Assembly (NCBI GenBank): GCA_038204425.1 | Contig: JBBRCZ010000006.1 | Span: 32,001-96,000, forward strand | DNA length: 64,000 nucleotides | Direction: 5' to 3' | Origin: Spirochaetia bacterium | GTDB lineage: Bacteria > Spirochaetota > Spirochaetia > DSM-27196 > Salinispiraceae | Shown: positions 58,466 through 62,737 of the stretch, piece after piece | Numbering within the stretch: position 1 is the stretch's first letter | How the letters are laid out: every line of letters begins with the position of its first letter | The notes under the pieces: model-generated | The model's input: only the letters and a program-made list of their open reading frames with translations | The model's database searches: none | What the model was told of the DNA's origin: nothing | Program-made: the position numbers and the translations under genes

Positions 58466-58867
58466 TTAATCAGGCTCACCAAACCTTCGGGTAAAGTGGA
58501 TGCTGCGACCACCGTCTTCCCAATGATGCTCGCTGGCAAACTCGTCAAAGATAAAAAACCCATGCCCTCGCTCGCCGCCAATTTTTCTTTCTGCCATTAC
58601 TCGAGCAAGGTCAAACCCTTGTCCGCTGTCGCTTACAACTGCCAGCCAGTGATCATCAAATAGGCGAATATCAATACTAATACACTGCCGTGGGTCAAAT
58701 AAGCCACCGTGTTCAATCGCGTTTTCGACTGCCTCTCTGAAGAGCAGTTCTATAGCGAAGCGGTCGGCACGGTTCTTAATCAAGGACAAATGCTCTTTGA
58801 GCGTAGCAAAGAATGCTTCGGCTTCCATTGAGCTCGCTTGTATGATAAAAGAAATTGCTTGTTCCAT
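58466..58867 (-). CDS. RsbW/SpoIIAB-like anti-sigma Ser/Thr kinase (HATPase_c)
   Basis: EAVENAIEHG, VSDSGQGFD, ERGHG. Confidence 0.8.
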   Translation of the reverse strand: MEQAISFIIQASSMEAEAFFATLKEHLSLIKNRADRFAIELLFREAVENAIEHGGLFDPRQCISIDIRLFDDHWLAVVSDSGQGFDLARVMAERKIGGERGHGFFIFDEFASEHHWEDGGRSIHFTRRFGEPD

Positions 58868-59024
58868 AATTATAGCTAAAAGTATCGTGCACTGCTGTCT
58901 AAACTTCCAGAAAAACGCGTTTAAATTTCACCTATAGACTAAAAAAGTCCAAACCAGACAATGTCTTCCAAACTGTACTTTGTTTACCTTGCAGTCTGGT
59001 GGGTGTCGGGTTAGAATGAACACA

Positions 59025-60770
59025 ATGAAGGCGTCTCTGCTATTTCTACCTATCAAATCTAAAGCTCCGAGTGTGGCTCTACCCTCTCTAACGCAACTCT
59101 TAACCGATGGTGGTTATATTCGTAGCATCGGTGATGGTCTCTACGCTTTTTTACCGCTTGGTATGCTTGTTTTGCAAAGCATAATCCAATTGATCCGCAC
59201 CGAGCTCAAAAGGCTCGGTGGTCAAGAAATCTTATTGCCAATGGTGAGCCCAATGCCACTATTGGAAGCCACAGGGCAGGATCAAATTCTGGGGAGTGAG
59301 CTGCTTACTCTAAAAGATAGCAAAGACCGAATCTTGGCTATCGCTCCTTCACACGATGCGCCCATGCTGGAACTTTTAAAGGGTGTCTTGCATTCGAGCT
59401 GGCAATTGCCGGCCTACTTTTTCCAGATCCAAGCCAAGGCCAAAGACGACCTCAGCCTTGGAAGTGCAGAAGCAGGCTTTTTGGCGCCGCGCGAATACTT
59501 GATGAATGATTCATTTAGCGTTCATCAAAGCTTTACGCAACTAAACAACTTTATTCCAAAGATTTACGGTGCGTTTAGACGCATATTTACGCTTTGTGGC
59601 CTGGAGCCCTTAGTATCAGAAGGTGCTCCGAGTGATCCTTTTGGCTTGCACAGTCATGATTTTATTGTGCTGGACAAGCACGGTGATTATCGGGTGGTAG
59701 TTTGTGAACAATGCCACTATATTGCCGACCAAAGGCTGGCAGTTGGCTTGTCCAAGATTAGCTGTCACCGCCCCTTGCCCCTCGAGCGTGGATCAAAGAC
59801 GGCGACGCATTGTTTGGGGGATCTTTTGAGGGAGCTGGGGTTTGCCACAAGTCAATTGGCGCTTGCTCATGTTTACAGTGCCCAAAAAGGCTTTGTGATG
59901 GCTGTTGCAAGAGCAGATCAGGCCATTAGTCGGGTCAAATTGAGTAGAATTTTGGGTGAGCCCATTTTTCAAGCCCTTGATGCGTCTGCACTGGAATCCT
60001 TGGACCTCTGTCCAGGTTTTATGTCGCCAATGGGTTTGGATCTGCAAGATACGCTGTCGTATGGATTAAGGATAGTAGTAGACAAGTCGGTTGCAGAGAC
60101 ACCTAATCTACTGATTGGTGCTAACCTGTCCGGTGAGTACTGGGTCAACAGCAATTTTGGTCGGGACTACGAAGCACATCTGGTTGGTGACATTGCTGTT
60201 GTTGATGAACGCCAACGCTGTTATCACTGTGGTGGTGAGCTTAAAGTATATGAGGCAATCAAGATTGCCTCTATTGATCGTGTCAATGATATGCACTCGC
60301 GCGCTCTGTCATTGTTGGTCAAAGACGACAAGGGTACTTTGATTCCCCCTTGCATGGGATTTTACGGTTTGAGTATCACGCGACTTTTGGGAGCGGTGGC
60401 CTTAAGCTACCGGGACGAACGAGGGCTTCGTTGGCCATTGCAAGTTACTCCTTACAAAGCGGTGCTTCAAGTTGTAGGAAAGAATTTTCGACTTCAGCTT
60501 CTTGCCCAAGAAATCCATGACTCGCTAGGCGAGCATCTACTGTGGGATGACAGGCCGATTTCATTCTCGCAAAAATGTCTCGACGCTGATAGAATGGGCA
60601 TTTCTATGCGGATAATCATTTCTACGGCAAGTCTCGCAGATCGAAGTGTTATGATTCTGTCACGAACCGGTACATTGAGGAAGCGTGTCACTTTTCATAC
60701 CGTTAGGTCGGTTTTGATGGAGTACTGGAGGCTCGAGCGTGAGGCCCACGGACTACACGAAGAGGTATAA
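59025..60770 (+). CDS. Divergent prolyl-tRNA synthetase paralog (catalytic + INS + anticodon-binding domains)
   Basis: Colinear with bacterial ProRS (GLYAFLPLG, QLP..FQIQ, RE.LM.D, GAN, MG.YG, DDR) but key motifs altered; start ATG 59025 inferred. Confidence 0.8.
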   Translation: MKASLLFLPIKSKAPSVALPSLTQLLTDGGYIRSIGDGLYAFLPLGMLVLQSIIQLIRTELKRLGGQEILLPMVSPMPLLEATGQDQILGSELLTLKDSKDRILAIAPSHDAPMLELLKGVLHSSWQLPAYFFQIQAKAKDDLSLGSAEAGFLAPREYLMNDSFSVHQSFTQLNNFIPKIYGAFRRIFTLCGLEPLVSEGAPSDPFGLHSHDFIVLDKHGDYRVVVCEQCHYIADQRLAVGLSKISCHRPLPLERGSKTATHCLGDLLRELGFATSQLALAHVYSAQKGFVMAVARADQAISRVKLSRILGEPIFQALDASALESLDLCPGFMSPMGLDLQDTLSYGLRIVVDKSVAETPNLLIGANLSGEYWVNSNFGRDYEAHLVGDIAVVDERQRCYHCGGELKVYEAIKIASIDRVNDMHSRALSLLVKDDKGTLIPPCMGFYGLSITRLLGAVALSYRDERGLRWPLQVTPYKAVLQVVGKNFRLQLLAQEIHDSLGEHLLWDDRPISFSQKCLDADRMGISMRIIISTASLADRSVMILSRTGTLRKRVTFHTVRSVLMEYWRLEREAHGLHEEV

Positions 60771-60776
60771 AACACA

Positions 60777-61667
60777 ATGAGCTTTGAACTGAGCCCAGAT
60801 TTATTGAACGATTTGATTTTTGGCATGGAAAATCAGCAGGCCCAACAAGTTCTTGATACTAAGTCGCTAAAACTCATTGAGGGTCGCCCAGAGCTAAGCG
60901 ATGATGTAAACTATCTGCTTCTGCCCGAATGGACGTCAGCCAATGGTTTTGAATTGATGGAGAGCTTCGTACTAGGGCTGCACAGTCCATTGTTAAGAGA
61001 GCGCCTGTGGTCAATTCTGGAGAGCGGGCGCGGGGTCTTTAAAAACTTTAAGGCCGCATTGCGAGAAGAGCCAGCACTCGAGCAAAAGTGGCAGCGCCAC
61101 AAGCGCTTGGCGATGAGAAGTCATATTTTGGGTTGGTACAACGAATTAAGAGACTATTGGGGGCTTTTGCCGATCGCGGCCATGGAGGAAGAGGACGGAG
61201 ATACTACTGAGCTGGTCAAGTGGGACTTTAGTATTCGATCGGCGGACATAGAGCATATTGTGTCTCTTACTAGTTTAGATAAACACTACTTCCAAGAAAA
61301 TCTGCGGCAACTTGACTTGTCAGATCTAAGCCAGGATGGAGCTGAGCAGCTTTTTTTGTACTTTAGAGAAGGCCTTGCGCCGCCCCGGCCAGAGCAATTT
61401 ATAGTTTGTTATACTCCAGATGACGAGATAGCTGGCTTTCTTTGGTATCAAAACCGTTGCGGACTCAATGAAATTCTTCAACTTGCTGTCGCAGAGGCTT
61501 ATCGAGGCTTGGGAATTGCTAAGTCGCTGATGGAACAATTCCACAAAAAGATTGCTGCTAGCACAGGGCAAAAAATCATTGTAAAACTGCCTTCTCAGCC
61601 AACTTGGGTTGCTCAAAGTTTTGAGAAACAAGGGTTCAAAAGTCTCGGTTCAATTGCTTTGTTTTAG
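60777..61667 (+). CDS. UPF0158-domain / GNAT acetyltransferase fusion
   Basis: MSFELS..LIFGMENQ, LPEWTSANGFELMESF, GRGVFKNFK; C-terminal LAVAEAYRGLGIAKSLM, FEKQGF. Confidence 0.8.
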   Translation: MSFELSPDLLNDLIFGMENQQAQQVLDTKSLKLIEGRPELSDDVNYLLLPEWTSANGFELMESFVLGLHSPLLRERLWSILESGRGVFKNFKAALREEPALEQKWQRHKRLAMRSHILGWYNELRDYWGLLPIAAMEEEDGDTTELVKWDFSIRSADIEHIVSLTSLDKHYFQENLRQLDLSDLSQDGAEQLFLYFREGLAPPRPEQFIVCYTPDDEIAGFLWYQNRCGLNEILQLAVAEAYRGLGIAKSLMEQFHKKIAASTGQKIIVKLPSQPTWVAQSFEKQGFKSLGSIALF

Positions 61668-62539
61668 GCTTGCAACCTTATATTTTCGGCGAAGACATGT
61701 ATGCGTTCAAGCTCAGCCATAACTGCGTCAGCGACTGCTTGTTTGGGATCTTCCTCGGTCCGGCCGCGATTGGCGGTCCTAAACTCTTTGGTGTCGAGAA
61801 TCGTGTCGGCATAGAAGACAACTTTATCAGCAAAAGGCATGTCTTTGGTCATGTCGCCATTTGGATTGGGACGCAGGGTATTTCCTGCGATGCCGATCAA
61901 AAGTAGGTGGTCAAAGGACTTTATGTAAGAGTCGATTTCTTTTAGACCTCTCTTGGTTTGGTCATGACCAGGTCTATAACGTGTCCCAGAAGGAAAAACT
62001 AGAACTATGTTGCCTTTGTGTTTGTGACGGACCATTTCATGTAACGCGGCCATGTTAATCGAACGAGCTCGCATAACTTCCTCTTGAGCTGTTGGGCCAT
62101 CCTCTTTGAGTTTGCTTAGGCTTCTGGATGGATAGATAACGATCCGGCTGTAAGCCTCAGCAAACGCGCGTGCAAAATTGGTTTCTTCGTTAAGCTTAGC
62201 ACCCGCCATCGCAATGATCTGATTGACTGCAGCTTTAGCGTCTGCTGAGTGCTGTTCCATTAAGTAGAAGAAATTGGGAATATCAAAGTTAGAGTAGTGT
62301 TCCATGAGTATCAGACAGGATTGGCCGGCCTGTGCTCGTCGGGCTAGTTCCAGAATATTTTCCATACCGGCCACCTGGCTGCCTGGCGTGATCAACTGGC
62401 CCAAAAGTTTATCAATGTGTAGGCGATTGGCGAGATTTGCGACTTGGAAGACATTGCTTGGATCAATTCTGGCGGCTTGGACGGAGTTTTTGAGCATGAC
62501 CGCAATTATTTCCTGCGCCATTACATCTATAGATTTCAC
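61664..62539 (-). CDS. Glycerol-3-phosphate / lysophospholipid acyltransferase (PlsC-like)
   Basis: HxxxxD motif EHYSNFD, FPSGTR; GTG start at 62539 after AGGAGAG. Confidence 0.82.
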   Translation of the reverse strand: MKSIDVMAQEIIAVMLKNSVQAARIDPSNVFQVANLANRLHIDKLLGQLITPGSQVAGMENILELARRAQAGQSCLILMEHYSNFDIPNFFYLMEQHSADAKAAVNQIIAMAGAKLNEETNFARAFAEAYSRIVIYPSRSLSKLKEDGPTAQEEVMRARSINMAALHEMVRHKHKGNIVLVFPSGTRYRPGHDQTKRGLKEIDSYIKSFDHLLLIGIAGNTLRPNPNGDMTKDMPFADKVVFYADTILDTKEFRTANRGRTEEDPKQAVADAVMAELERIHVFAENIRLQA

Positions 62540-62737
62540 CCTGGTGGCTCTCCTGATCAAAAATTGGCTTGAGTTAAGAAAAAAACCGCATAGCCATAGA
62601 ATAGAATCCAGCAAGTAGTTATAGATTGTGTTTGTGATCGTCAATGAGCATGTGCAAATCTTTGATACTTGGTATTCGTGTAAACATAGTATCACAAAAA
62701 AGTTGCTTCTCGTCTACTGGCAGGTGTTAAGCTAAAG

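What the first reader, a model, noticed from the sequence alone, without database searches (positions are those of the whole stretch)
59012..61667. Full-length but catalytically degenerate ProRS paralog coupled to a UPF0158-GNAT acetyltransferase
Seen: an intact ~580-aa ORF colinear with bacterial ProRS, but with changed motifs. The proline-binding PTHEE reads PSHDA. Motif 2 KFRDE.RPRFG..R reads KAKDDLSLGSAEAGFLAP, so the invariant ATP-binding Arg is gone. EVGHIF.LG reads KIASIDRVN, and motif 3 GCYGIG..R reads GFYGLSITR. The INS editing-domain Lys (K-T/S-L) also appears lost. The CEQC/CYHC cysteines are kept. A GNAT fusion gene starts 6 nt downstream. Known: aaRS paralogs are repurposed (HisZ, EpmA, GluQ), and some GNATs acetylate aminoacyl-tRNA or translation proteins. 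Inference: a non-canonical tRNA-binding or regulatory pseudo-synthetase, possibly working with the acetyltransferase or dimerising with the true ProRS.
Basis: partly seen in the sequence, partly recalled or inferred. Interest (0 to 1): 0.72.

Follow-up and report, generated by a model that had tools for sequence, protein, structure and literature searches.

The report
Catalytically dead second prolyl-tRNA synthetase
This spirochaete keeps an intact but chemically disabled extra copy of the enzyme that loads proline onto tRNA; the copy belongs to an old family kept alongside the working enzyme in many related bacteria, probably for a non-enzymatic job that is still unknown.

Summary
Confirmed, and wider than first read. 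The 581-aa ORF folds as a bacterial ProRS (TM 0.88) but keeps 1 of 12 active-site residues, against 79 of 102 other conserved sites. A separate eukaryote/archaeal-type ProRS passes its family cut-off.

The gene is the most eroded member seen of a class-wide spirochaete paralog clade (my label: ProS2). 76 of 78 genomes carrying it also have another ProRS. An N-x-F-x-P helix signature is in 86 of 86 paralogs and 0 of 127 canonical enzymes. A leaderless-type promoter precedes 56 of 72.

Most members keep the catalytic residues. Two lineages lost them separately yet stay under purifying selection (dN/dS about 0.06 in the other lineage; pN well below pS among this family's members).

The GNAT link is ancestral but not obligate: ProS2 lacks it in 12 of 47 genomes, and the GNAT lacks ProS2 in 24 of 62. 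Editing and acceptor-stem residues are gone, weakening the tRNA-factor idea.

Best reading (0.5): a non-catalytic scaffold or regulatory subunit, partner unknown. This scan noted what seems the same family on other DNA (e1-6715899). My searches found no paper on it.

The parts
58989..59017 (+). Sigma-70-type promoter, TTGCAG-17 nt-TAGAAT, ending 7 nt before the ATG (predicted leaderless mRNA)
   Evidence: Sequence. Same layout in 56 of 72 paralog genes vs 5 of 124 canonical proS. The generic scan did not list it because the -35 box matches only 3 of 6. No RNA data.
59025..60770 (+). ProS2: full-length P-type ProRS paralog, 581 aa (P0001), catalytically degenerate
59346..59360 (+). Proline-binding TXE loop, reads PSHDA (T109S, E111D, E112A)
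   Evidence: residue roles from passages of PMC13629369
59436..59498 (+). Motif 2: R140K, E142D, RPR loop lost, R154A, F158Y
   Evidence: RPR role from passages of PMC12152171
59523..59558 (+). Family signature at the start of the helix after motif 2 (H167 ... L173-N174-N175-F176-x-P178)
   Evidence: N174+F176+P178 in 86 of 86 paralogs and 0 of 127 canonical ProRS; helix 170-190 in the model
59703..59714 (+). CxxC pair 1 (C227, C230); likely structural zinc site with pair 2
   Evidence: All four Cys in 85 of 86 paralogs and 105 of 127 canonical; zinc binding is inference
59817..60155 (+). INS editing domain; fold kept, K280L and H372Y, GxxxP glycine kept
   Evidence: Pfam tRNA_edit 43.9 bits; residues; triad intact in 0 of 11 copies of this lineage vs 126 of 127 canonical
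60219..60230 (+). CxxC pair 2 (C399, C402)
60261..60287 (+). Ribose/metal strand, reads KIASIDRVN (E413K, G415A, H/N416S, F418D)
   Evidence: E413 is K or R in 11 of 11 copies of this lineage
60357..60383 (+). Motif 3, GFYGLSITR (G450S; Arg453 kept)
60477..60716 (+). Anticodon-binding domain, partly eroded (DDR, K517, D522, R529, R547 kept; G515, E543 lost)
   Evidence: Pfam 17.3 bits, under its cut-off of 21; residues
60777..61667 (+). UPF0158-GNAT fusion, 296 aa (P0002): N-terminal UPF0158 domain about 1-127, GNAT about 142-296 with intact acetyl-CoA motif R243-G-L-G246
61664..62695 (-). Convergent acyltransferase gene, part of the ancestral gene block
   Evidence: Pfam PF01553; same position in relatives

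Best explanation
Shown: the protein is a well-folded, selectively maintained pseudo-synthetase of an old second ProRS family (ProS2) of one spirochaete class. It sits beside, and does not replace, a housekeeping ProRS. In this lineage the proline pocket, ATP/metal site, acceptor-stem loop and editing site are all lost. The fold, four cysteines and a family-specific N-x-F-x-P helix are kept. Inferred: the selected job is non-catalytic. It works as a low-abundance dimeric scaffold or regulatory subunit, in the manner of HisZ, and binds a protein partner through the signature helix. In most spirochaetes the retained active site would serve as a ligand input (proline, ATP or adenylate) or a side activity. 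This lineage has dropped that input and keeps only the docking role. The co-transcribed GNAT is one candidate client but cannot be the family's only reason to exist.
For: Loss is targeted: 1 of 12 active-site residues kept, vs 79 of 102 other core-conserved sites, 12 of 18 family-specific sites and 58 of 270 variable sites (Fisher p 4e-6; site classes set without the degenerate lineages). A canonical E-type ProRS is present: 612.7 bits vs cut-off 437, motifs intact. ProS2 is one clade: FastTree 1.0; IQ-TREE quick tree SH-aLRT 100, stem 0.8. 76 of 78 ProS2 genomes have another ProRS. The two exceptions are 92-94% complete drafts, within what incompleteness predicts. Erosion occurred separately in families f1 and f74, and both keep the signature (16 of 16). 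Purifying selection acts on eroded copies: dN/dS 0.065 and 0.061 in f74 pairs; pN 0.16 vs pS 0.66-0.72 for G007 fragments vs G006. A leaderless-type promoter is conserved.
Against: No partner is identified and no binding is shown. That the signature is an exposed docking surface is inference; I had only secondary structure, not coordinates. 47 of 70 core members keep all 12 active-site residues, which fits a real enzyme as well as a ligand sensor. Six of the eleven changes in P0001 are conservative (T-S, E-D three times, R-K, F-Y), so weak ligand binding is not excluded. ProS2 is lost or broken repeatedly (not found in G001, G004, G026, G040, G279; broken or split in G023, G196, G277, G284). 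dN/dS could not be measured on the G000 branch itself, which has no close relative with DNA. The promoter belongs to the locus: the GNAT inherits it where ProS2 is gone. Kin are not independent, so counts overstate.
Confidence: 0.5

Rival explanations
1. ProS2 is an active ATP-dependent ligase with a non-housekeeping job (other acceptor, other substrate, or stress back-up). In this lineage that job has lapsed, and P0001 is a late-stage remnant held by weak constraint or by its role in delivering ribosomes to the GNAT gene.
For: 47 of 70 core members keep 12 of 12 active-site residues. There are systematic pocket-side changes (SGRW aromatic in 0 of 70, H211Y/F, D201G, Y177F) and an E111L sub-variant in 7 sequences. 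Clean losses are frequent. Branches in f1 are long. Codon adaptation is low, 11th percentile (weak measure).
Against: Eroded copies without any GNAT found still show dN/dS about 0.06. All 11 f1 sequences used are near full length (553-624 aa) at 40-75% identity and keep the signature and four cysteines. Non-active-site conserved positions are kept at 77% vs 21% for variable ones.
Confidence: 0.22
2. ProS2 and the UPF0158-GNAT form a dedicated module: ProS2 regulates the acetyltransferase or presents it with a substrate.
For: GNAT directly downstream in 28 of 29 loci of the order (gaps -32 to +16 nt) and in 34 of 47 ProS2 genomes of the class sample. Acetyl-CoA motif in 29 of 29.
Against: GNAT not found in 12 of 47 ProS2 genomes (f55, f57, f65, f74), which keep the signature. 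GNAT present without ProS2 in 24 of 62. Its invariant residues are equally conserved in 20 ProS2-less genomes. The whole block (enolase, ProS2, GNAT, acyltransferase, CBM, TPR) is syntenic, so adjacency may be inheritance.
Confidence: 0.15
3. The protein is a tRNA-binding factor: a trans-editing enzyme for the INS-less E-type ProRS, or a sensor or chaperone of tRNA-Pro.
For: It carries the only tRNA_edit domain found in G000. The anticodon domain is present with DDR, K517, D522, R529 and R547. The editing triad is kept in 41 of 70 core members.
Against: Editing triad in 0 of 11 f1 copies, and the RPR arginine is lost in all 11. K279A is editing-defective in E. coli (PMC3973320 passage); R144 mutation costs over 1000-fold (PMC12152171 passage). 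ProS2 is also kept next to INS-bearing P-type ProRS (16 of 47) and next to stand-alone YbaK/ProX proteins, while many E-type-only genomes show no editing domain at all.
Confidence: 0.1
4. It heterodimerises with the housekeeping ProRS to tune it.
For: Motif-1 region residues (P44, G46, E68, P72) are conserved.
Against: The housekeeping enzyme is E-type in 30 of 47 class genomes and P-type in 16. tblastn of P0001 finds no hit to the E-type gene, so one interface is unlikely to fit both types.
Confidence: 0.03

Closest known systems
Canonical bacterial (P-type) ProRS, e.g. E. faecalis 2J3L, S. aureus 5ZNJ
   Same: Domain order, length and fold (TM 0.88).
   Different: 1 of 12 active-site residues kept; RPR loop and editing Lys lost; below NCBIfam cut-offs (314.5 vs 558; 244.4 vs 306.7); carries a signature absent from 127 canonical enzymes.
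HisZ (HisRS paralog, regulatory subunit of HisG)
   Same: Class II synthetase paralog without adenylation activity, used as a regulatory subunit (PMC9437257 passage). This is the working model.
   Different: HisZ keeps its amino-acid pocket and lacks the anticodon domain (recalled). Here all domains are kept, the pocket is eroded and no partner enzyme is known.
Bacillus thuringiensis ProRS1 (P-type) plus ProRS2 (E-type)
   Same: Both ProRS types in one genome (PMC11229370 abstract and passages).
   Different: Both Bacillus enzymes are functional. Here the P-type copy is degenerate, and 16 of 47 class genomes keep it beside another P-type enzyme rather than an E-type one.
ProRSx of Streptomyces
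   Same: Non-canonical duplicate of bacterial ProRS; the only ProRS paralog in that review's table (PMC9437257 passages).
   Different: ProRSx is active and has its own tRNA-ProA. No such tRNA was seen among 41 tRNAs of G000, and the active site here is lost.
Archaeal LeuRS-I and LeuRS2; insect SLIMP
   Same: Full-length or near full-length duplicates with little or no aminoacylation, kept by selection (PMC9437257 passages).
   Different: LeuRS-I and LeuRS2 still bind tRNA and LeuRS-I still adenylates. Here tRNA-recognition and ATP residues are eroded.

Membership tests
Canonical P-type ProRS | Catalytic + INS + anticodon-domain architecture and fold | tested here: met
Canonical P-type ProRS | Score over curated NCBIfam cut-off | tested here: not met
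   314.5 vs 558 and 244.4 vs 306.7
Canonical P-type ProRS | TXE loop Thr and Glu | tested here: not met
   S109, D111
Canonical P-type ProRS | Motif 2 Arg, Glu, Phe and the RPR acceptor-stem arginine | tested here: not met
   K140, D142, Y158; loop reads LSLGSAEAG
Canonical P-type ProRS | Ribose/metal Glu-x-Gly-His/Asn-x-Phe | tested here: not met
   K413, A415, S416, D418
Canonical P-type ProRS | Motif 3 arginine | tested here: met
   R453 kept; G450S
Canonical P-type ProRS | Charges tRNA-Pro | not testable with these tools
   Needs an assay
INS/YbaK/ProXp editing domains | Conserved Lys (E. coli K279) | tested here: not met
   L280; Lys in 0 of 11 f1 copies vs 127 of 127 canonical
HisZ-type regulatory aaRS paralog | Coexists with a canonical synthetase and lacks adenylation residues | tested here: met
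HisZ-type regulatory aaRS paralog | Binds and regulates a partner enzyme | not testable with these tools
   Partner unknown; needs pull-down and assay
ProRSx | Intact active site and a dedicated non-canonical tRNA | tested here: not met
   Active site lost; only the two tRNA-Pro genes show C1:G72/A73 ends among 41 tRNAs of a 96% complete genome
ProS2 clade (defined here) | Falls in the clade; N174-x-F176-x-P178; second ProRS in genome | tested here: met
GNAT acetyltransferase (partner gene) | GNAT fold and R/Q-x-x-G-x-G/A acetyl-CoA motif (motif recalled) | tested here: met
   Pfam over cut-off; Z 15.4, rmsd 3.0, 140 aligned to 1vkc; motif in 29 of 29
GNAT toxins that acetylate aminoacyl-tRNA (recalled: AtaT, TacT) | Cognate small antitoxin gene and toxin-family match | not tested
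   No small upstream gene in the operon; no toxin-specific profile was run

The most novel reading that the evidence does not exclude
Free-living spirochaetes carry an undescribed synthetase-derived signalling module. A full-length ProRS paralog, made from a leaderless mRNA, reads proline, ATP or tRNA status through its old active site and passes it to a protein partner, in many lineages a protein acetyltransferase. Two lineages converted it independently into a ligand-blind scaffold, so the family preserves every step from enzyme to pseudo-enzyme.
Probability: 0.2. Interest if true: 0.82.

Novelty: new variant of a known kind. Interest (0 to 1): 0.6.

Why it matters
Repurposed synthetase paralogs have repeatedly revealed new biology (HisZ, EpmA/PoxA, GluQ). 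The review I read lists only ProRSx for ProRS. This family is broad: 47 of 111 genomes in a class-wide sample. The two members with source names are filed as 'proline--tRNA ligase' / 'prolyl-tRNA synthetase' or 'aminoacyl--tRNA ligase-related protein', so it hides in annotation as an ordinary proS. It offers a graded natural series from 12 of 12 to 1 of 12 active-site residues, with one invariant signature that points to the residues to mutate. That makes the function directly testable and gives a clean case of enzyme-to-pseudo-enzyme evolution seen twice.

Tried and rejected
Sole or active housekeeping proS: rejected. Assembly error or frameshifted pseudogene: rejected.

Complex prediction of ProS2 (residues 1-575) with the UPF0158-GNAT, each with its alignment: no answer, score 0.00; not counted for or against binding.

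Expression data: no RNA holder listed. The two small-share runs covered only short pieces. A metagenome scan for close relatives with DNA gave one short match, so there is no dN/dS on the G000 branch; G000 vs G002/G003 is saturated.

The genome-contig scan returned none of the ProS2 clade among the 80 loci kept. I used 77 of them as the canonical control set; three partial or misframed loci (L068, L131, L136) and the partial L046 were dropped before the tree. P0013 (near-identical to L013) and the unrelated degenerate P0010/P0011 were left out of the residue counts.

No Rfam match in 9 loci. Complementarity with stand-alone YbaK/ProX was not seen (43 matches were not listed). The UPF0158 domain got no separate fold match because the GNAT domain filled both lists, so that part is barely tested; the atlas gave only UPF0158-type or hypothetical clusters under 0.8. 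The careful IQ-TREE run did not finish, so support values are SH-aLRT of the quick tree.

Literature: searches listed no paper on this family by title or abstract start; one search found one table mention of UPF0158. The library lacks most subscription papers and I read no supplements. Large aaRS surveys or their supplementary tables could list these genes.
Full report
1. Observation. The ORF 59025-60770 encodes 581 aa. It matches the catalytic and INS domains of bacterial (P-type) ProRS over Pfam's cut-offs and the anticodon domain just under it, and stays under both NCBIfam ProRS cut-offs. It aligns end to end with S. aureus, E. faecalis and P. aeruginosa ProRS. It is predicted with pLDDT 88.7 and TM 0.88 to 2J3L. 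Contigs of two further DNA runs show no changed letter inside the ORF. The UPF0158-GNAT gene starts 6 nt downstream.

2. Active site. I took twelve ligand-contacting positions from passages of a ProRS/Pro-AMP structure paper (PMC13629369) and mapped them through the alignments. P0001 keeps one, motif-3 Arg453. Of 127 canonical P-type enzymes, 109 keep twelve and 18 keep eleven. The loss is targeted: 79 of 102 other core-conserved sites and 12 of 18 family-specific sites are kept, against 58 of 270 variable sites (p 4e-6). The RPR arginine needed for acceptor-stem recognition (PMC12152171 passage) and the INS lysine (PMC3973320 passage) are also gone. Against a fully dead site: six changes are conservative. 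E413K/R (11 of 11) with E212D (10 of 11) is nearly fixed in this lineage, which could be a rewired rather than an empty pocket (inference).

3. The working enzyme is elsewhere. G000 encodes an E-type ProRS at C5:119173-120609, 612.7 bits against a cut-off of 437, with its motifs intact. Bacterial E-type enzymes charge P-type tRNA-Pro (PMC11229370 abstract). Both tRNA-Pro genes found have C1:G72/A73 ends.

4. A class-wide family. In 41 genomes of the own order, 37 have the orthologue, four of them partial or broken; 36 of these have another ProRS. In 111 genomes of the class, 47 have a full-length copy that falls in one clade. Of these, 30 also have an E-type ProRS (one of them a P-type as well), 16 have a P-type only, and one has none found. 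Five of the second P-type copies were judged by score only. Merged, 76 of 78 have a second ProRS; G009 and G262 are 92% and 94% complete, and two misses are within expectation. In the phylum sample no genome outside the class scored at clade level (129 genomes; the 27 best were put in the tree and fell outside). The clade has SH-aLRT 100 and a stem of 0.8, and sits among P-type enzymes next to the class's own canonical copies. An old duplication fits but is not proven. The spirochaete label rests on source names of two clade proteins (P0164 'Spirochaeta lutea', P0165 'Spirochaetales bacterium').

5. What the family keeps. N174-x-F176-x-P178 is present in 86 of 86 paralogs and 0 of 127 canonical enzymes; all four cysteines in 85 of 86. 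P442, G485 and S302 are further family-enriched positions. Of 70 core members, 47 keep all twelve active-site residues, but none keeps the SGRW aromatic residue, and the proline-loop region is altered. Erosion happened separately in family f1 (1-8 of 12; includes G000) and in f74 (4-6 of 12). I set these two groups apart after seeing the erosion; both are also single branches of the tree. dN/dS is 0.065 and 0.061 for two eroded f74 pairs, like intact core pairs (0.014-0.17). Within f1, pN is 0.16 against pS 0.66-0.72 for G007 vs G006.

6. Expression signals. A -10 box lies 3-10 nt before the start in 56 of 72 paralog genes (49 with a -35 box; Shine-Dalgarno in 4). For canonical proS the figures are 5 of 124 and Shine-Dalgarno in 80. 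Shuffles give a mean of 4.2, and 33 of 1159 long ORFs of G000 show the strict pattern. G000 has TTGCAG-17-TAGAAT-7-ATG. This predicts a leaderless mRNA; no RNA data were available. The promoter is not specific to ProS2. The GNAT sits directly behind it in at least seven of 22 loci without ProS2 (read by eye), and three canonical copies show a similar layout.

7. The GNAT link. The GNAT follows directly in 28 of 29 loci of the order and in 34 of 47 class genomes. It is on another contig in one, and not found in 12. It occurs without ProS2 in 24 of 62 genomes. Both genes lie in an ancestral block of enolase, ProS2, GNAT, acyltransferase, CBM and TPR genes. In 14 of 20 ProS2-less loci the GNAT lies next to enolase, and its invariant residues are equally conserved. 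So the operon is old, but each gene lives without the other.

8. Mechanism. Shown: intact fold, targeted loss of catalytic, editing and acceptor-stem residues, a separate working ProRS, purifying selection on eroded relatives, and an invariant family signature. Inferred: a non-catalytic scaffold or regulatory subunit that docks a partner through the signature helix (0.5). Rivals are an active side enzyme now lapsing in this lineage (0.22), a dedicated ProS2-GNAT module (0.15), a tRNA-binding or editing factor (0.10), and a heterodimer with the true ProRS (0.03).

9. Comparison and novelty. It would work like HisZ if the inference holds (PMC9437257 passage) but is not a HisZ. It fails membership of canonical ProRS and ProRSx, and differs from the Bacillus two-ProRS case, where both enzymes are active. 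Papers were seen as passages or abstracts only, none as whole text. My searches listed no description of this family; the library is incomplete and supplements were not read. An earlier AI note of this scan (e1-6715899) describes a rewired second ProRS in another spirochaete. It is probably the same family; I could not see its sequence, and it is not independent support. Verdict: real, a new variant of the known kind 'repurposed synthetase paralog'; interest 0.6.

Noticed in passing
L211-L217 (G271, G255, G191, G237, G218, G193, G201): A ProS2 sub-variant has T109S plus E111L in the proline pocket but intact ATP residues, and no GNAT was found in these genomes. It may bind a different substrate.
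   Followed up: partly
window 58466-58867 (-): In G000 the divergent upstream gene is an HATPase_c_2 (anti-sigma-like) ORF, where most relatives have enolase.
   Followed up: partly
P0010, P0011: Two other full-length degenerate ProRS-like proteins (5 and 2 of 12 active-site residues) fall outside the ProS2 clade: possibly independent pseudo-ProRS lineages of unknown source.
   Followed up: no
G222 (L189, L237 and C9:76038-77447): Three ProRS genes in one genome: ProS2, a canonical P-type and an E-type.
   Followed up: no
G000 whole genome; G003, G006: No stand-alone YbaK/ProX editing protein was found in G000; G003 and G006 gave no tRNA_edit match at E 1e-6.
   Followed up: partly
L267 (G279), L225 (G026), L224 (G004): Loci without ProS2: the GNAT lies directly behind the promoter (G279), next to enolase (G026), or behind a fibronectin-III/chitinase gene (G004).
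   Followed up: partly
P0101: A 1401-aa protein carries a ProRS-like region at residues 848-1400, a possible fusion or read-through.
   Followed up: no
G000 whole genome: No tRNA-Pro(CGG), tRNA-Ile(GAU) or tRNA-Ala(UGC) among 41 tRNAs; the draft is incomplete.
   Followed up: no
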